Both the position numbers and the translations under genes were made by a program. A stretch of DNA of 56,175 bases from Actinomycetota bacterium (GTDB lineage Bacteria; Actinomycetota; Actinomycetes; Actinomycetales; Microbacteriaceae): contig WLEA01000001.1 of NCBI GenBank assembly GCA_009704535.1, forward strand, positions 1 through 56,175, read 5' to 3'. This document shows positions 13,056-31,672 of this stretch, one piece after another; position 1 is the first letter of the stretch, and each line of letters opens with the position of its first letter. The notes beneath the pieces were generated by a model. The model saw only the letters and a program-made list of their open reading frames with translations, was not told the DNA's origin and searched no databases.

Positions 13056-13901
13056 TCAGTCCTGCTGGCGAACGACCACACTGTCCGGCGTTGTCACATC
13101 GATGATCTTGGGTCGGCCGGCACCGGCTGCCACTAAGGCAGGACCCAAAACCCGGGCTTTTTCTCGGGAGCGTTCCGCGCTCCCCCAGATGACTTCGTGG
13201 GAACTCTCCCTCATGGTGAACCGCACATCATCAAGTGTTGACGCTGTCACGCCTTCGATACTGCGGGAAATCTCCGGAGGAAGAGCGAGCAACACCCTGG
13301 ACACAGCGTCGAAGCTTGGTGATGTGGGGTCAGCCTCGACCAGGATGACCGGCAGCCCCGCGGGCGCGTCAGGCTCGGACCAGAGTTCCACTGCCGCAGC
13401 GTCCACCACCACGAAGGCACCGCCTCGCGATACCGCGCCTAGAGGCCGGCGTTCATTGAGAATAATCACCAGCGTCCCCGGAGGTTCAATCCGGGTCTCA
13501 AAAGCTTGGATTACGCGGATGGAGCTCAGGGCATCAGCAACGCGGTCGTTGCTGATGCGCGCAAGTGGCTCGCCGTAGAGGCCAGAAAGCGCCTGTTGGA
13601 TGTCTGTTTCCGGGACGGTGTGTGACCCCTCCACCTGAACGTCGCGCAACGCAAGAACTGGGGAGAGAACCAAAACCACCGTGGCCAAGACCACAACGGC
13701 AATACTGCCCAGTGACAGCGCCCACACTCCCCTTCGGCGCCTAGTTGCGGCGGTCAGACCCGTAAACTCGGCTTTCTCGGCCCTCCGTCGGCGCTGTGTC
13801 GCCTCTCGCACGGCACCTTGCGCTGAACCGCCTCGTTGTGGCCTGCCGCGTGGTCGTGTCCGGGGCGTCTTCGTGGCAGAAAAACCTTCAGGGCGCTGCA
13901 T
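13056..13901 (-). CDS. ftsQ: Cell division protein FtsQ
   Basis: Basic N-terminus, one TM, POTRA-like region, VIWG; lies between murC and ftsZ; start MQRPEGF. Confidence 0.88.
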   Translation of the reverse strand: MQRPEGFSATKTPRTRPRGRPQRGGSAQGAVREATQRRRRAEKAEFTGLTAATRRRRGVWALSLGSIAVVVLATVVLVLSPVLALRDVQVEGSHTVPETDIQQALSGLYGEPLARISNDRVADALSSIRVIQAFETRIEPPGTLVIILNERRPLGAVSRGGAFVVVDAAAVELWSEPDAPAGLPVILVEADPTSPSFDAVSRVLLALPPEISRSIEGVTASTLDDVRFTMRESSHEVIWGSAERSREKARVLGPALVAAGAGRPKIIDVTTPDSVVVRQQD

Positions 13902-15303
13902 GAGCGCCTTCGTCGGAAGCCTGCTTCGTCGCCAACAGCTGCGGAACGATTTGATACAGATCACCCGTGGACATGGTCAGGATAATGTCACCAGGTTTGG
14001 CCAGGGCGACGGCGCGTTCGCAGGCACGCGCCCAATCGGGCTCGTAGTCATGGGAATACCCGGCCGGAAGCTTCTCGAGAATCAAGTGGGTGCTCACTCC
14101 CTCGATGGGGTCTTCTCTCGACCCAAAGATGTCAAGAAATATCGTGTGGTCGCTACCAGCGGCAAATGCGCTAGCCAACTCTGCTGACATGTACTGGGTC
14201 CTAGAAAAAAGATGAGGTTGAAACATCGTAATGACACGACCACTCCCAACGACGGCGCGAGCTGTCTCGAGCGCGGCAGCAACCTCGGTGGGGTGATGAG
14301 CATGGTCATCGAAGAATCGGACACCACCACGCTCACCGTGGAACTGGAATCGACGATCAGCTCCGCTGAACCCGCTTACCGCGTGGGCGGCCTCCTTGAG
14401 CGTGAGCCCGGCATCAACGAGAACCCCAGCCACCCCAACAGCGTTCAGACCATTGAGCCGACCAGGAACCGCGAGAACAATCTCGGCCTCCTCACCGGCA
14501 TAGGTGATCTGCGCGCGAGCAAACGGCGCAGGCTCGATACTCAAAATCCGAAAGTCAGCATCCGGGGACACCCCGTAGGTTCTCACCCCAGAAGCATCGG
14601 AGAGCCTGGAGGCCAGTTCTCTCGTGCCCTCGTCATCAGCACAGAGCACAACACCGTGGGTAGCCGTTCTGGCAAATGCTTCAAAGGCGTCATAGATGGC
14701 GTCCATCCCGCCGTAGAAATCGAGATGGTCCGGAGCGACATTCGTCACCAGCACCGTGGACGGCTGATACGTCAGGAACGAACGGTCTGACTCGTCAGCC
14801 TCAATCGCAAAGAGTTCGGCCGAGCCGGTGCGCGATGAGACGCCCCACTGGCTCACCACACCGCCATTGACGAAGCCCGCATCAATCCCAGCTCGATGGA
14901 GCGCGCTGGCGAGCATTGCAGTGGAGGTTGTCTTTCCGTGAGAACCCGCGACTGCCAGGACTGTTTTGCCCCGCATGACCCAGCGCAACGCAGTAGAGCG
15001 ATGAATCACAGAGAGACCTCGGGAATAGGCTTCCACCAGTTCAGGATTTTCGTCCCTGACAGCACTTGAGGCAACAACCGTGTCGGCATCGCCCAGGTGG
15101 CTCGCATCGTGACCAATGAACACGGTTATGCCCGCATCGCGCAGCGAGTCAACGATTTCCGAGTCCGAGCGGTCAGAGCCGCTGACCATCACTCCCTGCT
15201 GCGCCATGACACGCGCAATGCCGCTCATGCCTGAACCAGCAATTCCAATGAAATGCGCCCGGGAAATACTTCCGGGAAGTGGACCACCGGGTAGTGGTTT
15301 CAC
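13888..15303 (-). CDS. murC: UDP-N-acetylmuramate--amino acid ligase MurC
   Basis: GIAGSGMS, GSHGKTT, EADESD, DHLD, AHHPTE, QPH..SRT. Confidence 0.93.
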   Translation of the reverse strand: MKPLPGGPLPGSISRAHFIGIAGSGMSGIARVMAQQGVMVSGSDRSDSEIVDSLRDAGITVFIGHDASHLGDADTVVASSAVRDENPELVEAYSRGLSVIHRSTALRWVMRGKTVLAVAGSHGKTTSTAMLASALHRAGIDAGFVNGGVVSQWGVSSRTGSAELFAIEADESDRSFLTYQPSTVLVTNVAPDHLDFYGGMDAIYDAFEAFARTATHGVVLCADDEGTRELASRLSDASGVRTYGVSPDADFRILSIEPAPFARAQITYAGEEAEIVLAVPGRLNGLNAVGVAGVLVDAGLTLKEAAHAVSGFSGADRRFQFHGERGGVRFFDDHAHHPTEVAAALETARAVVGSGRVITMFQPHLFSRTQYMSAELASAFAAGSDHTIFLDIFGSREDPIEGVSTHLILEKLPAGYSHDYEPDWARACERAVALAKPGDIILTMSTGDLYQIVPQLLATKQASDEGAHAAP

Positions 15304-16400
15304 GCGCCCGAACCCTTGCTCCGCCGTGATGACAGCGCCTCCATCATGAACTCAACAAATGCCTCGGCGGCCTCGGGCCGCCCGAGGCCAATCGCGTTGG
15401 CCCTCATGCTCGCCAGTGCCGTTTCATCAGCGAGCAACGGGAGCACCACGTCTCGGAAACGCTCCGGCGTGAACTCCCGATCTGGCAACAGAAGAGCCGC
15501 CCCAGCAGCAAGGCTGTCTACGGCGTTTTCTTCTTGTTCCCCGTTGCCCACCGGATATGGAACAAAAACTGCGGGTATACCGACTATTTGAATCTCCGCC
15601 ACAGTCGCCGCACCAGCGCGCGAAATCACTGCGCTGGCGGATGCGAAAGCCAAATCCATTCGGTCGCAATAGGCCAGAGCGACATACCCAGGAGAAGACG
15701 GCGGCAGCGGATTCTTACTCCCCACGATATGCAGTATCTGCCAATCCAGAGCCAGTATGTCCTCCACCACAGCGGCCAGGGTCGCGTTCAGCGACCGGGC
15801 GCCCTGAGAGCCGCCGGTGACCAGTAGTGTCTTTTTCCCTGGCTTCAGCCCAAATGCGCTCCGCGCCCGGGAGGCATTGGGGGAAGACGAAGGATGGGTA
15901 ATGGTCCTCGCCATGGGCATGCCCAAGACTCTGGCGTGGGGCAACTGGGTCTGGCTGAACGTGGTCACCACAAACCGCGTGAGTCGCGAACCGAGCCTGT
16001 TCGCGAAACCCGGAACCGCATTGGCTTCGTGGATCACGAGCGGAGTCCTGGTGAGCCAGGAAGCAACATAGCTGGGCGCCGAGGCATAACCGCCAAATCC
16101 TGCAACCAGCTCGGCCCTGTGGCGCATAATCAACCAGACAACTTTGCCCACCGCGATGGCGAAACGAGGCCAGAACACCAGCGCACCAAGGCTCAGTTTT
16201 CTCGGCATGGGAAGCCGTTGGGTGGTCGCCAGCGCGAACCCGGCCGCCGGAACCAGGCGGGACTCAAGGCCCCCTCGGGTGCCAACCACCATGATTTCGG
16301 AGGGGTGACAAAGACCCTGGCGCACAACCTCATTCGCCACCGCAAGCATGGGGTTCACGTGGCCGGCGGTGCCTCCGCCCGCCAAAAGAACTCGGGTCAT
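15300..16400 (-). CDS. murG: Undecaprenyl-PP-MurNAc-peptide GlcNAc transferase MurG
   Basis: AGGGTAGH, HEANxxPG, GGSQGA, RAGAAT, EQxxNA. Confidence 0.95.
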   Translation of the reverse strand: MTRVLLAGGGTAGHVNPMLAVANEVVRQGLCHPSEIMVVGTRGGLESRLVPAAGFALATTQRLPMPRKLSLGALVFWPRFAIAVGKVVWLIMRHRAELVAGFGGYASAPSYVASWLTRTPLVIHEANAVPGFANRLGSRLTRFVVTTFSQTQLPHARVLGMPMARTITHPSSSPNASRARSAFGLKPGKKTLLVTGGSQGARSLNATLAAVVEDILALDWQILHIVGSKNPLPPSSPGYVALAYCDRMDLAFASASAVISRAGAATVAEIQIVGIPAVFVPYPVGNGEQEENAVDSLAAGAALLLPDREFTPERFRDVVLPLLADETALASMRANAIGLGRPEAAEAFVEFMMEALSSRRSKGSGA

Positions 16401-17617
16401 CGAGTGCCGGTCCTTCGTCGTTCCCGGTAGTCGCTCACTGACTCGGAGCCGGTGCGGTTGAGAGCCATCACCAACCCAATAGCGATCAACGACGAGAGCA
16501 GCGCAGAACCGCCCACTGACATGAACGGCAGCGGAACGCCAAGAACAGGCAAAAGCTCGAGCACCACCGCAATGTTGACCAGCGCCTGACCAATCAGCCA
16601 CACCATGACACCCCCCGTGACAATTCTCGCGAAGGGGTCTTGCTGTGCTCGAACCATGCGCGTCATCGCGATGGCGAGGACAACGAAGGCGACAATCACC
16701 AGTGTGGTCCCCGCAAGGCCAAGCTCCTCGCCAACAATGGCAAAAATGAAGTCGGTCTCGGCTGCTGGCAACCATGACCATTTGGCGCGAGAGTTGCCAA
16801 GTCCTACCCCGAGTAAGCCACCAGAGCCCAGGGCATAAGTCGAGTGAACGGACTGCCAACACGTTGTGAGATAGTCCGCCTCGGTGCACCCGGAGAACCA
16901 TGTCATGATGCGCGCCACACGCGAGGGACTCAAGACCGCAGCGATCCCCAGAAAGGCCCCCAAGGCGCCCATCACCGCCGCCAGGTGAGACAGGCGGACT
17001 CCGGCTAAAAATGAAACTCCCAGGGCAATCATCGTCATGATGCCCACAGTTCCCAGGTCACGGCCGGCAATCACCAATGCGAGCGCCACTCCGACTCCCA
17101 CAGCCAGGGGACTGAGAAGAACTCGGTAGTCGTGGAGACGATGAAGGCGATTCGACAGGATTGCCGCCATCCATGCGATCAGCGCAACCTTCAAAATCTC
17201 TGAGGGCTGACCACTAAATCCGGCGATGTTGATCCAATTTCGGTTACCTCCAGCGGTGATTCCCAGGGCGCTGAAGACTAGCGCCTGAAACACCAAAGCG
17301 CCCAAAAACACCGCCGGGGTAGCTCGCTTGATTTGGATGGGCCTCAGTCGAGACACGATGAGCATGAGCGGAACGCCCAACACCGCCCAGAATGCCTGCC
17401 TCAAGAAAGTGGCAAAAAAGTTGCCGTCGTTGCCGAGAGCCGAACCAACAAACGATGACGAGAGCACCATGACCAAACCAAAAGCAACCAAGAACAAGAC
17501 AGTCGCCACCATCACCACATACTCGCCCGATTCCGCGCGAAAGAGACGCCTCACACTGACGACCACGCGTGGCTTGTCAGCCGGAGAACTAGAAGGTCGA
17601 CGCACGACTGTCGTCAC
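16397..17617 (-). CDS. ftsW: SEDS peptidoglycan polymerase FtsW
   Basis: Multi-TM protein; QPSE, LPAAETDFIFAIVGEELG, GVPLPFMSxGGS; GTG start behind GAGGAAGG. Confidence 0.95.
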   Translation of the reverse strand: MTTVVRRPSSSPADKPRVVVSVRRLFRAESGEYVVMVATVLFLVAFGLVMVLSSSFVGSALGNDGNFFATFLRQAFWAVLGVPLMLIVSRLRPIQIKRATPAVFLGALVFQALVFSALGITAGGNRNWINIAGFSGQPSEILKVALIAWMAAILSNRLHRLHDYRVLLSPLAVGVGVALALVIAGRDLGTVGIMTMIALGVSFLAGVRLSHLAAVMGALGAFLGIAAVLSPSRVARIMTWFSGCTEADYLTTCWQSVHSTYALGSGGLLGVGLGNSRAKWSWLPAAETDFIFAIVGEELGLAGTTLVIVAFVVLAIAMTRMVRAQQDPFARIVTGGVMVWLIGQALVNIAVVLELLPVLGVPLPFMSVGGSALLSSLIAIGLVMALNRTGSESVSDYRERRRTGTR

Positions 17618-17744
17618 ATCGCCACCTTCCTCACGTTCAAAGTGCACCATCTAGGGCGGGTGAACCCTCCATCCACAAGTGTGAACCTATGGGGCGGATA
17701 GACCCGATAGGGCGCGCCGGCATGCCCCCAGCTGCCCCAGCAGC

Positions 17745-18737
17745 CTAGGGAAGGGTCACCACTCCCGCTATCAGCGCAGGCGAGACGTCATAGGAACGCG
17801 CAATAGCCACGGCCGCCAGGATGGTGGGCAGGTCATCGGGTATCACCCACCCGGCCTCCTCGAGCTCCTCGGTAGTCGAAATCTCGAGGGCCTGGTGCGC
17901 CCGATCCTCAAGGAAGGCCCGGTCGCAGAGAATACCCTCCACGAGGCCTAGATCGCTCATTCCCGGTGAGTCCAGTCCAATCCCAATTGCCCGGGCACCC
18001 TCGAGTACATCCGCGTCCTTCACCATCTCCTCAGTGGGTCCGACGCTGCGGCGATAGACACATGCCGTGGTCGTCGCATCAAACCGCGCTCCGCTGGGAG
18101 TCACGCCGGCATCTCCCAGGGACACCGTGAGCGCGGGTCTGCGCAGCGCCTCGGGATAGCGCTGCCACCAGCCGACGCCCGTCGACCCCGCCACAATAAT
18201 GAGTGTTGTGTAGGGCTCAGGGTCACGAAGTGCATCCAGTAGTGGGGCGCTCTCCAGCCCGACGTGCCGGGCACTACGACCATCAGCCACCAGTATCCGG
18301 GCTGCTAGATCAGCAATACGCGGCCCGTCGGTCTCCCCGACGACCAGTATCCACTGCGCTACGACGTCGTTCTTGTCTCGGACTCTCCACGCGAAATCCA
18401 CATCCGACCAGACTGGAACCCCCCCTCCCAGAAGCGCGCCCGCAACGGGGTCGTCACTGGAAACATCAGGAGAGACTATGGCGAGATCCGCAGTGTGACC
18501 AAGCGCTGCCTGCACCCTCGAGAGGACATCGCCAGAGACGTGGACTCCGGCGCCGATGACTTCGCAAATCCGCACGACATCGCTCTTGGCATCCGGTGCA
18601 ACAGCCAGAACTTCTGCGCCCAGCTCGACCAGCGTGTCAACAACGGCAAAGCCGGTGGCGTCGAGGCCAACGACTACGACCCTCACGCCAGACCAATCAC
18701 TATGCCAACTAGTCAGCGAGTCCAGCAAAGAGGCCAT
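17745..18737 (-). CDS. MurD-derived protein, predicted catalytically dead (no P-loop, no C-terminal domain)
   Basis: murD position; MurD-like N-terminus (LDSLTSWHSDW..V.V.GL..TGFAV.DTL.ELGA) and DRAFLEDR; GTNGKTT replaced by GETDGPR; 330 aa. Confidence 0.85.
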   Translation of the reverse strand: MASLLDSLTSWHSDWSGVRVVVVGLDATGFAVVDTLVELGAEVLAVAPDAKSDVVRICEVIGAGVHVSGDVLSRVQAALGHTADLAIVSPDVSSDDPVAGALLGGGVPVWSDVDFAWRVRDKNDVVAQWILVVGETDGPRIADLAARILVADGRSARHVGLESAPLLDALRDPEPYTTLIIVAGSTGVGWWQRYPEALRRPALTVSLGDAGVTPSGARFDATTTACVYRRSVGPTEEMVKDADVLEGARAIGIGLDSPGMSDLGLVEGILCDRAFLEDRAHQALEISTTEELEEAGWVIPDDLPTILAAVAIARSYDVSPALIAGVVTLP

Positions 18738-19834
18738 CAGCGGCTGAGCCACTCCAAGTAGAACACTCCTGCACCCGCAGCGGCAAACAGGCCAGCGATG
18801 AGCCAGAACCTGACGACAATGGTGACCTCAGCCCAGCCTTTGATTTCGTAGTGGTGGTGCAGAGGGGAAGAGTAAAAGACCCGTTTTCCGCCGGTTGCCT
18901 TGAAATACAGGCGTTGAATAATGACGGAGCCCGTCAAAATGACGAACAAGCCACCGACAATGGGCAGCAGGACTTCGGTTCGGGAGAACAGAGCCAGGGC
19001 TGCCACACCGCCACCAAGACTCAACGACCCGGTGTCGCCCATGAAGATTTTTGCTGGCGAGGTATTCCACCAGAGGAAACCAATGAGGCTCGCTGAAATG
19101 ATCGCCGCGACAGAGGTCAACTCCAGTGAATCGCGCACCTCATAACACTTGTAAACGTTCTCTTCATCGACCACACCGCGGAAACACGATTGGTTGAACT
19201 GCCAGAACGTGATCATGACGTAGGCGACGAAAACCAGGATGGTTGACCCACTGGCAAGCCCGTCCAGGCCATCAGTGAGATTGACCGCGTTTGACGTCCC
19301 CACAATTATCAGGCTCGCCCACACGGCAAAAGCAATAATTGCGCCTATCTGACCGAGACCGACAAAGGAAACAAGATCGGCGTTGCGGATCACGGAGATA
19401 CCCAGTGCCGCCGGTGTCTGGTTGTCGTTATCGGGAAAGGACACGGCCAGCACCGCAAACGTGACCGAAGCCAAGATTTGCCCGACGACCTTGGCTCGCG
19501 GACTGAGCCCCAAAGACTGCTGGCGGCGGACTTTAGAAAAATCGTCCAAGAAGCCGACAATTCCTAGGGTGACCATCAACCCAATGACGAGGACCGCTGA
19601 CTGAGTTACCGGTGCGCCCTCGATAAGGTGCGCCCCGAAATACCCCGCGACCACGGCGAGCAAAATAACAATGCCACCCATAGTGGGTGTGCCACGCTTC
19701 ACGAAGTGGGTTTTGGGGCCATCCTGGCGGATGAACTGTCCCCACCCCAGTTTCCCAAAGAGCCTAATGAAGAGCGGCGTGAGGAATAGCGAAAAGAAGA
19801 GCGCGATAGCGCTGCCGAGCAAAAGAATCCTCAC
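18737..19834 (-). CDS. mraY: Phospho-MurNAc-pentapeptide transferase MraY
   Basis: GTPTMGG, GFLDD, NAVNLTDGLDGL, FMGDTGS, PLHHH. Confidence 0.97.
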   Translation of the reverse strand: MRILLLGSAIALFFSLFLTPLFIRLFGKLGWGQFIRQDGPKTHFVKRGTPTMGGIVILLAVVAGYFGAHLIEGAPVTQSAVLVIGLMVTLGIVGFLDDFSKVRRQQSLGLSPRAKVVGQILASVTFAVLAVSFPDNDNQTPAALGISVIRNADLVSFVGLGQIGAIIAFAVWASLIIVGTSNAVNLTDGLDGLASGSTILVFVAYVMITFWQFNQSCFRGVVDEENVYKCYEVRDSLELTSVAAIISASLIGFLWWNTSPAKIFMGDTGSLSLGGGVAALALFSRTEVLLPIVGGLFVILTGSVIIQRLYFKATGGKRVFYSSPLHHHYEIKGWAEVTIVVRFWLIAGLFAAAGAGVFYLEWLSR

Positions 19835-20475
19835 GAGAGATCCTCCACGAGCCGCAGAGCGAGGGGAAGCAGCGACTGCCCCGTCGAACCCATCACGAGC
19901 ACCACATCCTCCGGCCGGACAAACGCACGGATGTCATCGTACGCGTCTTCAACACTCTCGCAGTGCTGCGACTCTCCATCCCAGGACCCCTCCCGTCCGA
20001 CGGAGAGAAACAGCGCTCTGGCTTCGGGGCCAACAGCAAAAACCTGGTCCACGTTGAGTCGCACCATCAACGCCCCAAATGCCCCGAGGTTGTCATAGTC
20101 GGACTCTCCGTCGAAATCTAGCGCTCCCGCGGCGACAACCACGCGTCGTTCTCTCGCAGCGAGACCCGTCACGGTTTTGAGTGATGTGGCCGCATCGCTG
20201 ACTCCGAGGGTGCCGGTGTCATCAATGACAAGCACGCCCTCCCCCACTCGATGAACATCGAGTATGTGAGGCTCCGCAGCGCGCACCACTCCCGCGACAG
20301 CCTCGCCAAGGCTTACCCCCGCGCCAACGCGAGCGCTCACTGATTCAAGCGCGCGCTCCAGGAGCCGACGTGACATGGTGGGGACTTCCCAGGCCAGCCT
20401 CTGCTCTCCTGCGACGAGTACTCCCCCAGATCGACCCCAGTCAATCCACGGCTCGTCAAGGGTGACCTCAGTCAT
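19831..20475 (-). CDS. MurF-derived C-terminal-domain protein, predicted catalytically dead
   Basis: murF position; keeps VRLNVD, EGSWDGES and DVVLV; lacks N-terminal and ATP domains; 214 aa; overlaps the murE stop and mraY start. Confidence 0.82.
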   Translation of the reverse strand: MTEVTLDEPWIDWGRSGGVLVAGEQRLAWEVPTMSRRLLERALESVSARVGAGVSLGEAVAGVVRAAEPHILDVHRVGEGVLVIDDTGTLGVSDAATSLKTVTGLAARERRVVVAAGALDFDGESDYDNLGAFGALMVRLNVDQVFAVGPEARALFLSVGREGSWDGESQHCESVEDAYDDIRAFVRPEDVVLVMGSTGQSLLPLALRLVEDLS

Positions 20476-22027
20476 GCGGTTGTTCCGGGGCATAGCCCGC
20501 TTCTCGGAGGGCAGCCCGCGCTTCATCCCGAGCTGAATAGGGAACCTTCCGGCCCGAAATATCCCGGTAGTTCTGGGATCCTGGACCGCTCCAGAGAACG
20601 CTATCGCCCTCCCCCACCAGAGAAACAGCGTGTCGAATTGCCTCACTCGGATCAGGAATCTCGAACCACACGGAGCCCTCAACCGAGCGCACACCCTCGA
20701 GCAGTCCGGCACGAATCACAGCCGGATCTTCGCGCCGAGGGTCGTCATCAGTGACGATAACCACATCGGCAAGTCGTGCTGCAGTCGCACCCATGAGAGG
20801 CCGCTTAGTGGCATCTCTATTTCCTGAGGTGCCACACACCATGACCAGCTTCCCCGTCGTGCGTGAGCGAAGAGTTTCCAGCGTGGCCCGGTATGCGTCT
20901 TCACTACGACCTGCATCAACAAACACTTGAGGGCCAGTCGGTCCCGACACTCGCTCAACCCGACCCGGAACGAACACGGGAATACCCGCTGTGCCAGGGC
21001 CCATTGCCGTGGCCATGTCGGCGGGTGGCACCCCCTGAAGAATGAGCATCACCGCGGCGAGAGCCGCGTTGGAGACCATGTGTTCTCCCATGATGGGGGC
21101 CGAGAATTCGATGGCCCAAGCCTCGGGCCCGCTCACCGAGAACATGGTGGTGTCACCCGAGATTCCGGTAATCGCGTAGCGCCAATGCGGTACCTCCTCC
21201 ACGCCCTCCGACCCGGCCCGGCCGAGTGTCCAGAACGGGATTGTGGTCTGGCGGGCGAGGGCCAGCCCCCAGGATGTATCCACACAGATGACGGCCTTGT
21301 GAGAGCGCTCCGGTGTAAACAGGGCGGCCTTGGCCGCCAGGTAACGGTCCATATTGCCGAAGTCTTCAAAATGGTCGTGGCTCAAATTGGTAAACCCGGC
21401 AACATCGACCATCACACGATCGAGACGGTTTTTTTCCAGAGCCTGCGCACTGACCTCAATGGCAAGCCCACTGACGCCTTGTTCTTTGGCCAGTGCCAAC
21501 ATGGCGTGAATGTCCGGGGCCTCAGGGGTCGTCAGGGTGCTCGTGTAGGGAACGCCCGCCACAACGCGCTCAGCAGTAGTGGATAGCGCCGTCGTCCAGC
21601 CAAGGCCCCTCATGAGCGCGTCCAAGAGAAACGCCGTGGAGGTTTTCCCGTTGGTCCCGGTCACTGCAGCGATCGCCATAGAGCCGACATCGTCGGTGCC
21701 ATAAATCTCCGCAGCGATTGCTCCTAAGTGGCCCCTGGGGTCCTCGAGCACCAGTGTCGGTGTCATCTCCGGCAGCAGGCTGGCGCCAGCAGTGTCAGTA
21801 AGAACCGCGGTGGCCCCGGCGGCCGCTGCCTCTGGCCAAAATTCGATTCCGTGGCGGTTGGCACCCGGAAGTGCCGCGAAGAGATCCCCGGGCTGAACGA
21901 GACCCGTGTGGAGGGCAACACCCGTTACCAGGACATCGGGGCCCGAGTGGAGAGCCTTCACCGTGCTGGCTAACTGACGTGTCGAGAGTGGCGTGGGTCG
22001 CTGCGGACGAGGAATCTCAGCCATCAT
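20468..22027 (-). CDS. murE: MurE-family Mur ligase with divergent amino-acid-binding motifs
   Basis: PGDLF, VTGTNGKT, TTPEA, NLSHDH, GxRDxxKR, DDDPR. Confidence 0.9.
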   Translation of the reverse strand: MMAEIPRPQRPTPLSTRQLASTVKALHSGPDVLVTGVALHTGLVQPGDLFAALPGANRHGIEFWPEAAAAGATAVLTDTAGASLLPEMTPTLVLEDPRGHLGAIAAEIYGTDDVGSMAIAAVTGTNGKTSTAFLLDALMRGLGWTTALSTTAERVVAGVPYTSTLTTPEAPDIHAMLALAKEQGVSGLAIEVSAQALEKNRLDRVMVDVAGFTNLSHDHFEDFGNMDRYLAAKAALFTPERSHKAVICVDTSWGLALARQTTIPFWTLGRAGSEGVEEVPHWRYAITGISGDTTMFSVSGPEAWAIEFSAPIMGEHMVSNAALAAVMLILQGVPPADMATAMGPGTAGIPVFVPGRVERVSGPTGPQVFVDAGRSEDAYRATLETLRSRTTGKLVMVCGTSGNRDATKRPLMGATAARLADVVIVTDDDPRREDPAVIRAGLLEGVRSVEGSVWFEIPDPSEAIRHAVSLVGEGDSVLWSGPGSQNYRDISGRKVPYSARDEARAALREAGYAPEQPHD

Positions 22028-22062
22028 CGCCCTCTCTCTTGTCACCGACCGGCCGGGTGTCC

Positions 22063-23805
22063 CTACCAGGTTAGCGGGGGCACGACAGCTGGTTCGCTCG
22101 AGGGCGCGACGCGGTAGTGCTTCAAGACATGAGACATCAGATCTGTGAACGCCGGCGCCGCAGCAGAGGAGACCTTCGACGTCTGGGGCTTGTAGAAGGA
22201 GACCAGAACCACGTATTCGGGATTCTCTGCCGGTGCCATACCAGCCAGGGATATGACACGCTCGGAACCATAGCCGCTTGCGCTGGCGATTTCGGCGGTT
22301 CCGGTCTTGGCTGCAACCCGATAGCCGGGGATTTCCAGGACGGGGCGCAGGGCACTCTGGGTAACCACGGTCTCAAGAATATTCACCGTCTGGCGAGCAG
22401 CCGAGGCTGAGACGACCTGGATAGGTTCCGCAACGGGTGCCTCGATGAACTCACCGAGGCTCGTGGTGCATCCGTCGTAGAGGCGAAGCGGTAGACGAAC
22501 TCCATCATTGGCGAGCGCTTGATAAGCGCCAGCCATCTGTACTGCAGTTACCGAGATGCCTTGACCGTAGAGCTGGGCGAAGCGAGTGAAGGGGTCATAG
22601 TTCTCGGGAGTCTTCAGAACTCCGCGTGATTCACCGAGGAAATCAACAGCAGTTTTCTCTCCAAAACCAAAGGCCCTGAAGTAGTCGTACGCCTGTTGCT
22701 GGGGCATCCGCTCGCCGAGCACCGCCATACCGGTATTGGAGGAGGTTTGAAGCACACCTGCGGTTGTGAGTTGCCGGGCATCGGAGACGTGCATGTTTTT
22801 GATAAAGCGTCCGGAACCGATGGTGTAAACACCGGGAGCGACGATGCGATCGGAGACGCTGGTGTGGCCAGCATCAATAAGCATGGCGACACCCATGGAC
22901 TTCATAATCGATCCCGGCTCGTATGGGGCGCTAAAGGTTCTCGCGCCCATGTGCTCGGGGGGCGCATCGGTGAAGTCGTTGGGATCGAAGGTCGGCCAAT
23001 CCGCGGCGGCCAGAATGTGCCCATCGTTGACCCTGACAACAATCGCGCTTGCCTGCTGTGCTTGGAGTCTGCCTCCGTGCTCCGCTAACTGCTGAAGGAC
23101 GTACCACTGCAGGTCGCTATCGATGGTGAGATGCGCGGTTCCGCCGTGAATTGGTTGCTCGACCAGCGTGGTGGTTCCTGGCAGCCTGACCCCGTCAGCG
23201 CCCTGTTGATACGTAGCAAACCCGTTCTGGGCCATCAAGCATTCGTCTTCGGATAACTCCACCCCACCGAGGGGTTCGTCGCGACCCAACATTCCGGTGA
23301 GGTTTGCCGTGACGGGTCCGAAGGGATAAATCCTCTCCCTGATGAGGTCAATTTGTAGCCACGGAATATCCAACTCCCTCAGCGCATCTTTCGCTTGCGG
23401 GGTCACACCTTTCACCAAGTAGGTGAACTGCGCCGTGGGGTCCACTGAGACGGCAGAGAGCATTTCGTCATAGTTGGCACCGGTCACCTGCGCAATCTCG
23501 GCCACCGCCTGGGCTAGCGGAACAACTTCGCCAGCCCGTCGGAAGTCGCCGACTTTCGAGGGGTTTGCGCTGATGTCATAGCGGTCGACATCAAGGGCTA
23601 GGTCATTACCGAACTGATCAACAATGGAGCCCCGGGATGCCCAGAGCGTCTCACTCGTTGTGCGGACCTGGAGCGATTGCTCCTGAAGTTCAGCCGCTCG
23701 AACGATTTGAACGTCAACGAGGCGTCCTACAAAAACGAGGGAGACCGCCATCACTGTCGCGAGAGCTAGAGCCCCGCGGCGCCCAGACATACGTTGATGA
23801 GACAT
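22063..23805 (-). CDS. ftsI: Class B penicillin-binding protein FtsI
   Basis: RGSIxD, EPGSIMK (SxxK), SSN (SxN), KTGT. Confidence 0.93.
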   Translation of the reverse strand: MSHQRMSGRRGALALATVMAVSLVFVGRLVDVQIVRAAELQEQSLQVRTTSETLWASRGSIVDQFGNDLALDVDRYDISANPSKVGDFRRAGEVVPLAQAVAEIAQVTGANYDEMLSAVSVDPTAQFTYLVKGVTPQAKDALRELDIPWLQIDLIRERIYPFGPVTANLTGMLGRDEPLGGVELSEDECLMAQNGFATYQQGADGVRLPGTTTLVEQPIHGGTAHLTIDSDLQWYVLQQLAEHGGRLQAQQASAIVVRVNDGHILAAADWPTFDPNDFTDAPPEHMGARTFSAPYEPGSIMKSMGVAMLIDAGHTSVSDRIVAPGVYTIGSGRFIKNMHVSDARQLTTAGVLQTSSNTGMAVLGERMPQQQAYDYFRAFGFGEKTAVDFLGESRGVLKTPENYDPFTRFAQLYGQGISVTAVQMAGAYQALANDGVRLPLRLYDGCTTSLGEFIEAPVAEPIQVVSASAARQTVNILETVVTQSALRPVLEIPGYRVAAKTGTAEIASASGYGSERVISLAGMAPAENPEYVVLVSFYKPQTSKVSSAAAPAFTDLMSHVLKHYRVAPSSEPAVVPPLTW

Positions 23806-28237: not shown

Positions 28238-29656
28238 ATGCCTGAAGCAGAACACTCCCCCCGCAGCGCCGACGCGCGAGTGGATTCCCTGGAGCACGCT
28301 GTGTTGTCGGGTCTGACGCCCCGAACGCACCGCTTCGAAGGCCCGTCGCTAAAGGGCACTGGCGGAATTCGCAAAACTCTTTTTGGCAGCTTGCCGTTTT
28401 TGATGACCGGAACTTTGGCAGCCGGCGTTGGCGTCGCGCCTGCTGGGCCGACGAGCACCGAGATGACTGCACTCCAGCCAGGCCATGCCCGTGACGACAC
28501 GCGCCCGGGCCTCGCCCAGCGGTTGAGCCACGCGATGCTTCCGATAGCCCATTCCATCATCGCCGCCCTTCGACCAGACCTCCCAGCCACCTACACCGTG
28601 CAGGCAGGCGACACGGTCTCCTCGATTGCTGAAGCGTTTGAGCTTCCCACCCCTGCCATATTGACTCTCAACGGTCTGAGTTGGAACTCCCTCGTGCACG
28701 AGGGGCAGATTCTGAAGCTGAGCCCGGAGCCCACCAAGAAGCGCGCCGGATCTCCAGCCCGCCTTGCTGCTGGCGGATACGTCGTGTCCCCGGGTGACAC
28801 CGTGACCACGATTGCCGGACGTTTAGGAATCTCGGCTCAAGCACTCACCGCCCACAATGGCCTTCAGCCCGACTCCACGATCTACGCCGGTCAGATGCTG
28901 AGCGTGCCAGGCGCCACCCGACCCACTGTGGAGCGGACCGCTCCGACCGCGATGCCGGTCATCGCGAGCACGCCAACCGTGCTGAGCGCATCGACGCGCA
29001 ACGATGGCGAAACGGATGAGTCCGCTCAGGCCGACACATCCTCCGGAGTACCATTCGACGCCGCAGACCTCCCTCTGGCTGAAGCGCCAGCCTTAATCGT
29101 TGTCCAGGTTCCGAAGAAGCCAGCAGTGGTGGCAACCAAAGCCCCAGCCGCAAACCCCGCGCCAGTGGCCCAGGCCAGTGCGCCAGCTCCGGCGCCAGAG
29201 GCGACGGCCTCTGGCGAAGTGGGGCAACCTGTTGCCGGCTCGATTACGCCACTCAATGATGAGCGCAGAGCCAACGCGCAGGCCATTATTTCGGTGGGAC
29301 GCGAGCTGGGGGTTCCCGACTACGGAATCGTTATCGCACTCGCAACAGCGATGCAGGAATCGTCACTTCGCAACATCAACTGGGGTGATCGCGACTCGGT
29401 CGGTCTCTATCAACAGCGCCCCTCCAGCGGATGGGGAAGCGTTGAGCAGATTATGGATGCGGGCTATGCAACCCGCTTGTTCTTTGGAGGCCCGCAGAAC
29501 CCAAATAAGGGAAAGACCCGCGGGCTGTTGGACATCACCAACTGGCAGAGCATGACGCTCACCGAGGCTGCCCAACGCGTTCAAATTTCAGCGTTCCCCA
29601 AGGCTTACGCAAAATGGGAGCCCAGCGCATGGGCATGGTTGTACGAACTGACGTAA
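28238..29656 (+). CDS. LysM-repeat protein with C-terminal lysozyme-like cell wall hydrolase domain
   Basis: Two LysM repeats (YTVQAGDT, YVVSPGDT), Ala/Pro linker, ATAMQES..GDRDSVGLYQQRPS.GWG; start uncertain. Confidence 0.85.
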   Translation: MPEAEHSPRSADARVDSLEHAVLSGLTPRTHRFEGPSLKGTGGIRKTLFGSLPFLMTGTLAAGVGVAPAGPTSTEMTALQPGHARDDTRPGLAQRLSHAMLPIAHSIIAALRPDLPATYTVQAGDTVSSIAEAFELPTPAILTLNGLSWNSLVHEGQILKLSPEPTKKRAGSPARLAAGGYVVSPGDTVTTIAGRLGISAQALTAHNGLQPDSTIYAGQMLSVPGATRPTVERTAPTAMPVIASTPTVLSASTRNDGETDESAQADTSSGVPFDAADLPLAEAPALIVVQVPKKPAVVATKAPAANPAPVAQASAPAPAPEATASGEVGQPVAGSITPLNDERRANAQAIISVGRELGVPDYGIVIALATAMQESSLRNINWGDRDSVGLYQQRPSSGWGSVEQIMDAGYATRLFFGGPQNPNKGKTRGLLDITNWQSMTLTEAAQRVQISAFPKAYAKWEPSAWAWLYELT

Positions 29657-29704
29657 TGGAGTGGCAACCCGTATCTATCGCCATCCCGCCCTACAATCGG
29701 CTAA

Positions 29705-31672
29705 ATGGACGCCCCCACGATTGACCCGCTACTCGGCCGGGTAATCGACAACCGCTACGTCATTGAACGTCGCGTTGCCAGAGGTGGGATGGCGACCGTC
29801 TATGAGGCCATGGATCAACGCCTGGAGAGGCCAGTGGCAATCAAAATCATGCATCCGCACTTAGCGGAGGATGAGGATTTCACGCGTCGCTTCATCCAAG
29901 AGGCGCGGCAGGCAGCCAGGCTTGCCCACCCCAACATCGTTAATGTTTTCGACCAGGGGCAAGACGGCGCCATCACATTCATTGTGATGGAGTACTTGCC
30001 CGGGATAACACTTCGCGAATTGCTTAACGATTTTGGCGCTCTCACCCCGGCTCAGACCCTCGACATTGTGAAGGCTATTCTGTATGGACTGGACGCCGCA
30101 CACTCCGCCGGAATTGTCCACCGCGATCTCAAGCCCGAGAACGTCTTGCTTGCAGATGACGGGCGAATCAAGATTGCGGACTTCGGCCTAGCACGGGCTG
30201 CAAGTCACAATACGGCGACGTCACAGGCGCTCCTTGGCACCATCGCCTATCTCTCACCAGAGCTGATTTCCCGGGGCATCGCAGATGTGCGCAGTGACAT
30301 CTACGCGCTCGGCATCATGATGTTCGAAATGCTCACCGGCCAACAGCCCTACCAGGGCGACCAAGCAGTAACCATCGCCTACCAGCACGCCAACGATATT
30401 GTCCCGACCCCTAGCTCAAAGAACCCAGCTATCCCTACACAATTCGATGAGGTAGTGGCGTGGTGCAGCCAGCGCTCCCCCGATGACCGACCCCCTCATG
30501 CGCGAGCGCTGCTCGAGCACGTGGTCGAATTAGAGCGACTCCTGGGCCCTGAGTCATTGACCCAGGCAACCCAAGCACTCAACGCCACGGTAGCCATGAC
30601 TCAGAGGATGTCGGCCCTGGATATGCAAGAAACGGAGGTTCTCGATCCTCGATCTGCAGTGTTTGACGAGTTGGAGCCAACCGTAGCCCCTCCCCCGGAT
30701 GATGTCGACATGGCGCCCCAGCAGCCCATTCGCACAGCACATCGTCGGGGCCGCGCTGGCACAATCACTGCCGTCATCCTGCTCGTCGTTGCTGTGGTCG
30801 TTGGTGGAGGGGCCGCAGCGTGGTGGTGGGGTGGCGTTGGTGGAGCCGTCCAGATCCCCGAGGTTGCCGGTCTGAGTGTCGAGGAAGCTACCGCCACACT
30901 GACTGCTGCGGAGCTTGAGGTCTCTGAGGTTGTCCTCGAGGAATTCGACCTGGTGCTGCCCGCTGGAGTCGTCAAGGGCACGAATCCTCCGTCCGGTGAG
31001 TCAGTGGAACGGGGCAGTGTCGTGAGGCTCATTGTGTCGTTGGGCCCTAGCCCGGTGAGTGTTCCAGCAGTTACCGGAAAAACCCTGCAGGATGTGACCA
31101 GCGAATTTGAAGCACTCAACCTCATTATTGGTTCCAGCAGTGAAGAATTCAACGACTTCGTTGACGCCGGCACCATACTGCGGCTTGCGAACGCCGAGGG
31201 CGTGGCGTTGAGCGCCGGCACGGAGGTCTTGGCCGGTAGTACTCTCAACGTGGTGGTGTCTGCGGGACCAATTCCCGATGTTACCGGGCTCTCTGCGGAC
31301 GAAGCGAGACGTGTGTTGCAAGAGATTGGCCTCCTGGGAATCGTGGGCGGCGATGGTGAATTTTCTGACACCATCCCAGAAGGATCGGTTGTCAAGATTC
31401 TCGATCGAGACACCCGCATTGTTGTGCCGGGCGACACCCTCACGCTGCTGGTATCCCGTGGGCCAGAACTTATCGAGGTCCCGGATGTCATTGACAACAC
31501 GATTTCCGAAGCAAAACGCAGACTCGAAGCCCTGGGTTTCCGCGTTGAAGTCAGATCAGAGTTCCCCGAAGAAGACTGGGCCAAGGCCTTCGCTCGAGTC
31601 ACCAGCGTTGACCCCTCGGTGGGTCAAGAAGTCCCCACAGGGACGCTCATCATCCTGCGCAGCTTCGTCTAG
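29705..31672 (+). CDS. PASTA-domain Ser/Thr protein kinase (Stk1/PknL type)
   Basis: HRDLKPEN, DFG, YLSPE, TM segment, four PASTA-like repeats. Confidence 0.93.
   Translation: MDAPTIDPLLGRVIDNRYVIERRVARGGMATVYEAMDQRLERPVAIKIMHPHLAEDEDFTRRFIQEARQAARLAHPNIVNVFDQGQDGAITFIVMEYLPGITLRELLNDFGALTPAQTLDIVKAILYGLDAAHSAGIVHRDLKPENVLLADDGRIKIADFGLARAASHNTATSQALLGTIAYLSPELISRGIADVRSDIYALGIMMFEMLTGQQPYQGDQAVTIAYQHANDIVPTPSSKNPAIPTQFDEVVAWCSQRSPDDRPPHARALLEHVVELERLLGPESLTQATQALNATVAMTQRMSALDMQETEVLDPRSAVFDELEPTVAPPPDDVDMAPQQPIRTAHRRGRAGTITAVILLVVAVVVGGGAAAWWWGGVGGAVQIPEVAGLSVEEATATLTAAELEVSEVVLEEFDLVLPAGVVKGTNPPSGESVERGSVVRLIVSLGPSPVSVPAVTGKTLQDVTSEFEALNLIIGSSSEEFNDFVDAGTILRLANAEGVALSAGTEVLAGSTLNVVVSAGPIPDVTGLSADEARRVLQEIGLLGIVGGDGEFSDTIPEGSVVKILDRDTRIVVPGDTLTLLVSRGPELIEVPDVIDNTISEAKRRLEALGFRVEVRSEFPEEDWAKAFARVTSVDPSVGQEVPTGTLIILRSFV

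What the first reader, a model, noticed from the sequence alone, without database searches (positions are those of the whole stretch)
13888..22027. Candidate rewired peptidoglycan stem-peptide pathway: two retained pseudo-ligases plus retuned MurE and MurC
Seen: the dcw operon is complete in order and MraY, MurG, FtsW and FtsI motifs are intact, but only two of four Mur ligases (MurC, MurE) keep a P-loop. The murD- and murF-position genes have no stops or frameshifts and keep tight start/stop overlaps, yet lose catalytic motifs while keeping family-specific non-catalytic segments. Their surviving domains are complementary (MurD domains 1-2; MurF domain 3). Known: MurD and MurF are essential for the canonical pentapeptide, Mur ligases can form complexes, and Microbacteriaceae have variable group B peptidoglycan. 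Inference, three alternatives: (a) active replacements elsewhere, with the pseudo-enzymes kept as scaffolds; (b) MurC/MurE add pre-formed peptides (Mpl-like) or build a shortened, non-canonical stem; (c) the dead proteins act as specificity subunits for MurE/MurC.
Basis: partly seen in the sequence, partly recalled or inferred. Interest (0 to 1): 0.9.

Follow-up and report, generated by a model that had tools for sequence, protein, structure and literature searches.

The report
Replaced cell-wall ligases kept as pseudoenzymes
Two cell-wall-building genes of this small aquatic actinobacterium have lost their catalytic parts while substitute genes elsewhere in the genome likely do their chemistry, yet the same fragments were kept under selection in several separate lineages, so these enzymes likely have a second, non-catalytic job.

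Summary
Observation confirmed. The dcw murD slot encodes a 330-aa protein (domains 1-2, no P-loop); the murF slot encodes a 214-aa protein (essentially domain 3). The stem pathway is probably not shortened: the genome carries murL-murD2 at the usual murI site and hydrolase-membrane-type murF-ddl at the usual ddl site. Across the family the two swaps vary independently. Outside the genus, dcw MurD lost its P-loop in 11 of 11 MurL-positive genomes and kept it in 26 of 26 others; dcw MurF is short in 18 of 18 cassette-bearing genomes and full in 19 of 20 others. The flanking-gene tree needs 6 and 5 changes. Remnants evolve under purifying selection (dN/dS 0.06-0.19, like MurE) and keep family-specific motifs that the substitutes lack. 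Best reading: catalytically dead docking proteins; partner unknown. Other actinobacterial families mostly delete murD outright. MurE/MurC pocket changes are real but genus-specific and not tied to the remnants. The scan's earlier notes held no such finding.

The parts
17745..18737 (-). MurD* : remnant of dcw murD, 330 aa, domains 1-2 only, P-loop and DHLDW loop eroded, domain 3 absent
   Evidence: dN/dS 0.056-0.142 in 7 genus pairs
18318..18338 (-). eroded P-loop of MurD* (GETDGPR where full-length family members have GTNGKTT)
17910..18002 (-). retained family-specific segment of MurD domain 2 (EG.RAIG ... DRAFL), candidate docking surface
   Evidence: both motifs in 32 of 32 short dcw MurD rows; DRA[FY] in 1 of 17 MurD2 rows
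19831..20475 (-). MurF* : remnant of dcw murF, 214 aa, tail of domain 2 plus domain 3; no P-loop, DAYNA and KSS motifs eroded
   Evidence: dN/dS 0.091-0.189 in 7 genus pairs
19969..19992 (-). EGSWDGES motif of MurF*, centre of the conserved core, candidate docking surface
   Evidence: 38 of 38 short dcw MurF rows, 16 of 19 full-length rows, 0 of 22 membrane-type MurF rows; core dN/dS 0.00-0.08 in 5 genus pairs
18737..19834 (-). mraY, intact, flanked and overlapped by both remnants
   Evidence: TIGR00445 282.8 bits, over cut-off
20468..22045 (-). murE, P-loop intact, genus-specific amino-acid pocket (DAGRS, GTSGNRD, DDDPR, GPGSQ against family DFGHS, GADGDRD, DHHPR, GPGHQ)
13888..15303 (-). murC, P-loop intact, genus-specific changes in domain 3 (DHAHHP, MSTGD)
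   Evidence: TIGR01082 406.9 bits, over cut-off
16397..17650 (-). ftsW, intact; starts 94 nt after the MurD* stop
15300..16400 (-). murG, intact
22063..23805 (-). ftsI, intact

Best explanation
The dcw murD and murF of this bacterium have lost their catalytic motifs and whole domains, substitute genes elsewhere likely carry out their reactions, and the remnants are likely kept as non-catalytic docking proteins for the cell-wall or division machinery. Shown: (1) remnant anatomy; (2) murL-murD2 stands where relatives have murI, and hydrolase-membrane-type murF-ddl stands where relatives have ddl; (3) each remnant goes with its own substitute, independently, on several branches; (4) purifying selection at the protein level; (5) the conserved remnant motifs are missing from the substitutes. 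Inferred from known enzymology: MurC adds residue 1, MurD2 adds L-Glu and MurL turns it to D-Glu, MurE adds residue 3, the membrane-type MurF adds D-Ala-D-Ala, so the stem is likely a full pentapeptide. Inferred, untested: ancestral MurD and MurF of this family had two jobs; the substitutes cover the chemistry only, so everything tied to catalysis decayed and the surface needed for the second job (likely a contact with a partner such as MraY, MurG, FtsW, DivIVA/Wag31 or SepF) stayed. The partner is not identified.
For: Substitutes in the same genome: C118:1057-2520 scores 278.9 bits on TIGR01087 (cut-off 212), follows a MurL-like gene (316.7 bits on NF041275) and precedes rph-rdgB; against E. 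coli MurD it shows all four MurD2-type residues named in PMC8788868 (D182E, K348R, A414P, L416F), and E-at-182 and GG.DR recur in 17 of 17 rows. C81:400-1959 is a MurF-like protein with hydrophobic N-terminus, P-loop and D.YNSNP motif, followed by a Ddl-like gene, DUF3515 and thiL. Control loci show murI-rph-rdgB (6 of 6) and gpsA-ddl (5 of 5) at these sites. murI over cut-off in 0 of 20 MurL-positive and 26 of 27 MurL-negative genomes; a Ddl of 316 bits or more in 0 of 27 cassette-bearing and 16 of 20 other genomes (threshold drawn after seeing the scores). 2x2 table outside the genus. Tree of five flanking genes: 6 changes for short MurD, 5 for short MurF, one clade of short-MurD genomes rejected (AU p 0.0003); independent pairs go 5 same way, 0 opposite, 1 tie for each matched pair of traits, and show no such trend for crossed traits. 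Pooled pN/pS over six genus pairs: MurD* 0.17, MurF* 0.20, MurE 0.19, MurG 0.19. Internal control: in two other genera the part of murF* upstream of domain 3 drifts (dN/dS 0.95, 0.98) while the core does not (0.30, 0.38). In M. tuberculosis all four Mur ligases scored as interacting with FtsZ, FtsW, FtsQ, Wag31 and SepF (PMC3605390 passages). [quoted passage not shown]
Against: No partner is identified and no expression is shown. The independent-pair sign tests cannot pass 0.05 with five informative pairs (p 0.0625). The MurD gene tree itself does not reject a single origin of the remnants (AU p 0.16, long branches), although a richer model placed two remnant groups with full-length sisters. 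In other families of the class, 10 of 19 MurL-positive genomes have deleted dcw murD cleanly and only 2 keep such a remnant; 3 have deleted dcw murF, so the second job is not universal. Both remnants are the halves next to mraY, which operon effects would also favour, and synonymous change is lower in the MurF core than upstream in several pairs. MurF* core selection is relaxed in one genus (0.34 against 0.04 for MurE). The core window was chosen after seeing the alignment. MurL scores far below the Xanthomonadales cut-off of 700 and the MurF-like protein below the TIGR01143 cut-off (182 against 289); neither activity is tested. In B. pertussis MurE-MurF the MurF C-terminal domain is dispensable for binding MurC and MurD (PMC10214165 passage), and M. 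tuberculosis Mur ligases did not bind each other.
Confidence: 0.66

Rival explanations
1. The remnants are ligand sensors or regulators, not docking modules: MurD* would still bind a UDP-MurNAc-peptide in domain 1, MurF* a D-amino-acid peptide in domain 3, and tune MraY, MurG or the substitutes.
For: Domain 1 (the UDP-binding fold) of MurD and domain 3 (the amino-acid-binding fold) of MurF are what is kept; selection is at the protein level.
Against: The ligand-contact motifs are the ones eroded: GN.G and DHLDW in MurD* (0 of 32 keep DH[LI]DW), SPG and GxGxxG altered in this genome, DAYNA and KSS in MurF*. What is kept lies in family-specific segments.
Confidence: 0.15
2. The remnants are kept only to preserve translational coupling or internal signals for mraY and ftsW; the proteins have no job.
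For: Both retained halves abut mraY and keep start/stop overlaps; synonymous divergence is somewhat lower in the MurF core.
Against: Coupling needs an open frame, not conserved residues: dN/dS is 0.06-0.19, the motif is kept through synonymous codon changes, the neutral part of the same ORF shows dN/dS near 1, and other families join murE-mraY or mraY-ftsW directly. No consensus promoter on the coding strand in 17400-20600 (weak test).
Confidence: 0.1
3. The remnants are specificity subunits for the altered MurE or MurC of this genus, or MurD* and MurF* join to rebuild one three-domain ligase.
For: MurE has 14 of 225 and MurC 11 of 163 family-conserved columns fixed differently in the genus, against 5 of 442 for MraY, MurG, FtsW and FtsI together; the MurF* core also differs in this genus from other genera.
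Against: Genera with both remnants keep DHHPR-type MurE; each remnant occurs beside a full-length partner in other genera, and one genome keeps MurD* with no dcw murF at all; neither remnant has a P-loop, so a joined pair could not bind ATP in the usual way.
Confidence: 0.06
4. MurC and MurE add pre-formed peptides or build a shortened stem, so MurD and MurF are not needed.
For: Pocket motifs of MurE and MurC are changed in all genus members checked (17 of 18 and 19 of 19).
Against: Substitutes for both steps are present in 22 of 24 genus genomes each, the misses being 56-79% complete, and are under strong selection (dN/dS 0.02-0.17). MurC scores 407 bits as MurC and 182 as Mpl.
Confidence: 0.03

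Closest known systems
MurD2/MurL alternative pathway (Xanthomonas oryzae XOO_1320/1319; Micromonospora, Salinispora; PMC8788868)
   Same: Adjacent murL and murD2, four MurD2 signature residues, absence of murI in carriers.
   Different: The review lists no Microbacteriaceae; here the pair sits at the murI site and the displaced dcw murD survives as a selected remnant, whereas most carriers in other families of the class have deleted it.
Canonical MurD (TIGR01087) and MurF (TIGR01143)
   Same: Fold, operon slot and descent of the remnants.
   Different: No P-loop; MurD* lacks domain 3, MurF* lacks domain 1 and most of domain 2; far below both cut-offs.
MurF with hydrophobic N-terminus in a hydrolase-murF-ddl cluster (resembles the Helicobacter/Campylobacter arrangement; that resemblance is recalled, not tested here)
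   Same: Gene trio, P-loop, D.YN.NP motif; annotated as hydrolase, MurF and Ddl in the Pontimonas salivibrio supplement; a wide family of about 500-550 aa.
   Different: No biochemical test of this subfamily was found; it lacks the EGSW motif of native MurF.
Angiosperm MurE/PAP11 in plastid-encoded RNA polymerase (PMC12681378 passages; 8r6s_Q and 9epc_Q among fold matches)
   Same: A Mur ligase descendant used for protein contacts, partly through its C-terminal domain.
   Different: Plant organelle, moved to transcription, MurE-derived; here bacterial, two ligases, still in the dcw operon of a walled cell, and repeated on several branches.
Mur ligase complexes (B. pertussis MurE-MurF chimera, PMC10214165; M. 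tuberculosis Mur-divisome contacts, PMC3605390)
   Same: Evidence that Mur ligases make protein contacts.
   Different: Those are active enzymes and the contacts are not shown to be needed apart from catalysis; here catalysis and retention are separated by evolution.

Membership tests
Active MurD ligase (dcw remnant tested) | P-loop G.(N/K)GK(T/S) | tested here: not met
   GETDGPR; 0 of 32 short rows have GTNGK
Active MurD ligase (dcw remnant tested) | Domain 3 with DSKATN | tested here: not met
   protein ends after domain 2; 0 of 32
Active MurF ligase (dcw remnant tested) | Domains 1-2 with P-loop | tested here: not met
   214 aa, only Mur_ligase_C
Pseudogene | Neutral evolution, stops or frameshifts, patchy loss | tested here: not met
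   dN/dS 0.06-0.19; open frame in the genus loci but one error-prone locus
Pseudoenzyme | Enzyme fold kept, catalytic motifs lost | tested here: met
Pseudoenzyme | Purifying selection on the protein | tested here: met
Pseudoenzyme | Protein made, no activity in vitro, non-catalytic function shown | not testable with these tools
   needs proteomics, assays and genetics
MurD2 | E/R/P/F at E. coli D182/K348/A414/L416, P-loop intact | tested here: met
MurD2 | Paired with murL in a genome lacking murI | tested here: met
   own genome is 93% complete, only an Asp/Glu-racemase-family fragment of 24 bits found
MurD2 | Adds L-Glu, not D-Glu | not testable with these tools
   enzyme assay needed
MurL | NF041275 score over the curated cut-off of 700 | tested here: not met
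   316.7 bits on a 5'-cut gene; no genome reached 700 (model is for Xanthomonadales); homology is clear (E 1.8e-94)
MurL | ATP-dependent epimerisation of UDP-MurNAc-X-L-Glu | not testable with these tools
   enzyme assay needed
MurF (membrane-type substitute tested) | TIGR01143 cut-off; catalytic motifs; ddl neighbour | tested here: inconclusive
   best family is MurF but 182 bits against 289; P-loop and D.[YF]N[SA]NP in 22 of 22 rows; ddl-like neighbour
Mpl-like MurC | Scores as Mpl rather than MurC | tested here: not met
   407 bits MurC (over cut-off), 182 bits Mpl (cut-off 389)

The most novel reading that the evidence does not exclude
In Microbacteriaceae, MurD and MurF are moonlighting proteins with an essential non-catalytic role in cell-wall or division complexes; repeated replacement of their chemistry has cut them down, on about six and five separate branches, to the minimal docking modules (MurD domains 1-2; a 60-residue core of MurF domain 3 around EGSWDGES), which mark the contact surfaces of the long-proposed Mur assembly.
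Probability: 0.45. Interest if true: 0.85.

Novelty: new variant of a known kind. Interest (0 to 1): 0.68.

Why it matters
Whether Mur ligases do more than catalyse, and whether they form an assembly with MraY, MurG and division proteins, has been hard to test because the genes are essential for their chemistry. Here evolution has separated the two: substitutes hold the chemistry and the old genes persist as trimmed, selected proteins. Deleting them, or mutating the 8-residue MurF motif in a relative with normal enzymes, tests the non-catalytic role directly in culturable, harmless strains. It also extends the MurD2/MurL route to an abundant freshwater and marine genus, shows that annotation pipelines call these remnants MurD and MurF, and flags a genus-specific MurE pocket whose substrate is open.

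Tried and rejected
Complex prediction of MraY + MurD* + MurF*(66-214), partner MurF*: 'no answer', score 0.00 in two runs, controls not folded; this says nothing for or against binding, and the partner question stays open. AU test on the MurD gene tree with 58 rows did not finish; the 30-row version did not reject one clade. No gene-tree test was run for MurF*. Repeated horizontal gain of the cassettes was my first reading; the cassette trees roughly follow the trees of their flanking genes (by eye, unrooted, carriers only), so an ancestor holding both systems with later differential loss is at least as likely; two genomes of other families do hold murI, murL and full murD together. Hidden murD pieces fused to ftsW in genomes that lack dcw murD: none found. 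The 24-bit murI-model hit at C120 is an Asp/Glu-racemase-family fragment, not murI; the Ddl-like gene at C83 is the paralogue near trxB/parB that carriers and non-carriers share. In one search my pncB and rsmD references were read on the wrong strand; corrected. The species description of P. salivibrio is not held, so its wall chemistry was seen only as 'no homoserine' in a table of PMC4156110. Atlas look-up of MurF* did not complete. Literature searches that found no description of these remnants: (open-access library only).
Full report
1. The observation. The window is contig C1 of a 1.45-Mb, 93%-complete genome. The closest named records for the murD-slot protein are labelled acMicro-4 (97%) and Pontimonas sp. 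(83-85%), so the genus is taken as Pontimonas, family Microbacteriaceae. The dcw operon is intact in order. The murF slot holds a 214-aa ORF (20475-19831) with only the Mur C-terminal domain; the murD slot a 330-aa ORF (18737-17745) that scores 41 bits on a model with cut-off 212 and reads GETDGPR at the P-loop. Both overlap mraY. Both are predicted to fold well and match the expected parts of solved Mur ligases. All 22 genus loci in hand show the short murD slot and the 20 that reach it show the short murF slot.

2. Substitutes in the same genome. A search for the Mur middle domain finds six places: MurE and MurC in the window, FolC (C35), MurT beside GatD (C2), and two more. C118 holds a MurL homologue, then a MurD-family ligase over the TIGR01087 cut-off, then rph and rdgB. 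Aligned to E. coli MurD, the ligase has E, R, P and F at D182, K348, A414 and L416, the four residues that PMC8788868 (parts 1-2 of 3 read) gives for the L-Glu ligase MurD2, which works with the epimerase MurL in bacteria lacking glutamate racemase. No murI was found. C81 holds an alpha/beta hydrolase, a 519-aa MurF-like protein with hydrophobic N-terminal segments and intact P-loop, and a Ddl-like gene before DUF3515 and thiL; C5 ends with gpsA and the start of that hydrolase. In control genomes the same sites hold murI-rph-rdgB (6 of 6 loci) and gpsA-ddl (5 of 5). Both cassettes occur in 22 of 24 genus genomes, the misses being 56-79% complete, and evolve under strong selection. The supplement of the P. 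salivibrio genome paper (rows seen in files 5 and 7) lists as MurD and MurF two genes far from murE-mraY and calls the two ORFs beside mraY, and the gene beside its MurD, 'putative orf'; the text calls the wall genes mostly typical (passage). Its other supplements were searched only for the terms of those calls.

3. A natural 2x2 experiment. In 250 family genomes, MurL was found in 15 (7 of 95 genera) and the membrane-type MurF in 22 (9 of 95 genera), with partial overlap. I opened the dcw locus of all 25 carriers outside the genus and of 13 non-carriers taken from the listed rows. Outside the genus: MurL-positive, dcw MurD lost GTNGK in 11 of 11 and is short in 10 of 11 (G084 is full-length with an eroded active site, an apparent intermediate); MurL-negative, full with P-loop in 26 of 26 (G188 left out, cut by a contig end). 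Cassette-positive, dcw MurF short (134-338 aa) in 18 of 18; cassette-negative, full in 19 of 20, the exception G153 having a different murF-ddl pair elsewhere. murI is over cut-off in 0 of 20 MurL carriers and 26 of 27 others; the native-type Ddl is missing from 27 of 27 cassette carriers and present in 16 of 20 others. So murI and ddl were simply lost, but murD and murF were trimmed and kept in every carrier opened. On a tree of five flanking genes (37 of 56 rows), short MurD needs 6 changes and short MurF 5; one clade of short-MurD genomes is rejected (AU p 0.0003); matched traits go together in 5 of 6 independent pairs with none opposite (p 0.0625, the floor for five pairs), crossed traits do not. 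The MurD gene tree is weaker: at least 2-3 changes, single origin not rejected. The cassette trees roughly follow their flanking genes, so the order of events (old redundancy with differential loss, or repeated exchange within the family) is open.

4. What is kept. All short MurD proteins stop at the end of domain 2, lose the P-loop, GN.G, ELSS and DHLDW motifs in different ways, and keep an N-terminal W..W segment, W.D.ELAWR.RDK, P.LDA.R.P and the EG.RAIG...DRAFL segment (EG.RA and DRA[FY] in 32 of 32). All short MurF proteins keep the helix-strand-helix before EGSW.GE[SA] (38 of 38) and lose DAYNA and KSS. The substitutes lack these motifs (EGSW 0 of 22; DRA[FY] 1 of 17). By my own Nei-Gojobori script, seven genus pairs give dN/dS 0.056-0.142 for MurD* and 0.091-0.189 for MurF*, within the range of MurE and MurG. 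The 62-codon MurF core gives 0.00-0.08 in five genus pairs and 0.11-0.38 in five pairs of other genera (one pair saturated), while the upstream part of the same ORF reaches 0.95 and 0.98 in two genera. An open frame kept only for coupling should look like that upstream part. Limits: the core was chosen after seeing the alignment, high-GC genera inflate all ratios, and one genus shows a relaxed core.

5. Beyond the family. Of 400 genomes of the class, 24 carry MurL; 20 were opened and 19 showed the dcw locus. murD is cleanly gone in 10, replaced in place by murL-murD2 in 2, a scrap in 1, full-length in 4, and a 318-338-aa P-loop-less remnant of the same cut in 2 genomes of one genus of another family, both without murI. 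Three have deleted dcw murF and hold murF-ddl elsewhere. Thus the operon tolerates clean deletion, the second job is lineage-bound, and the same MurD trimming has happened outside the family too.

6. MurE and MurC. In this genus 14 of 225 family-conserved MurE columns and 11 of 163 MurC columns are fixed differently, against 5 of 442 in four other dcw proteins. Nine MurE changes lie in domain 3, including DHHPR to DDDPR (17 of 18 genus rows; 27 of 31 others have DHHPR). Other genera with both remnants keep the family pocket, so this is separate from the remnants. A change of residue 3, likely to a basic diamino acid, is plausible (DDPR in lysine-adding MurE is recalled, not checked); the only wall datum seen is that P. 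salivibrio lacks homoserine, which Rhodoluna has (table in PMC4156110).

7. Mechanism. Likely chemistry: MurC, MurD2 plus MurL, MurE, membrane-type MurF plus Ddl-like protein, giving a full-length stem. Likely role of the remnants: docking surfaces that the substitutes do not have. Published contacts of Mur ligases make this plausible but point different ways (passages of PMC3605390 and PMC10214165). Confidence 0.66; sensor role 0.15; cis effects 0.10; specificity subunit 0.06; altered stem 0.03.

8. Novelty. MurD2/MurL is known, and a Mur-fold protein reused for contacts is known in plant plastids (PMC12681378 passages). I found no description of selected MurD or MurF remnants, or of MurL in this family, in eight searches of the open-access library; subscription papers were not searched. 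The scan's earlier notes held nothing on it. Verdict: new variant of a known kind, interest 0.68, because it turns the question of a non-catalytic Mur role into a direct deletion experiment.

Noticed in passing
L099:2811-5507 (-), genome G124: MurL and MurD2 are fused in one 898-aa ORF (MurL 1-437, MurD2 447-896) before rph.
   Followed up: partly
L046:6741-8297, genome G084: Full-length 518-aa dcw MurD with eroded active-site motifs (GSSGKST, DSRATT) in a MurL carrier: an apparent intermediate stage of decay.
   Followed up: partly
L084/L130, genome G153 contig C16: A third kind of substitute: an ordinary-type murF with ddl outside dcw, lacking the EGSW motif; the dcw remnant is kept here too.
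   Followed up: partly
L028:3488-4021 (-), own genome C120: Asp/Glu/hydantoin racemase family gene cut by the contig end; could supply another D-amino acid for the wall; similar weak hits in few relatives.
   Followed up: no
L029:7216-9468, own genome C83: Aminotransferase plus Ddl-like ligase between trxB and parB, shared by most family genomes searched; candidate for the group B cross-bridge, untested.
   Followed up: no
L003:769-2768, own genome C2: MurT-GatD-like pair next to two alanine-racemase-like genes, one much shortened.
   Followed up: no
L113, L115 (G348, G323): In another family murL-murD2 sits inside the dcw operon after mraY, behind an unrelated inserted ORF.
   Followed up: no
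L060, genome G052: A 0.9-Mb family genome with murF and murE in swapped order and neither murI nor murL found; its D-Glu source is unexplained.
   Followed up: no
window 28238-31672: LysM protein directly before a PASTA-type Ser/Thr kinase upstream of the dcw operon, and an ordinary housekeeping remainder of the window.
   Followed up: no
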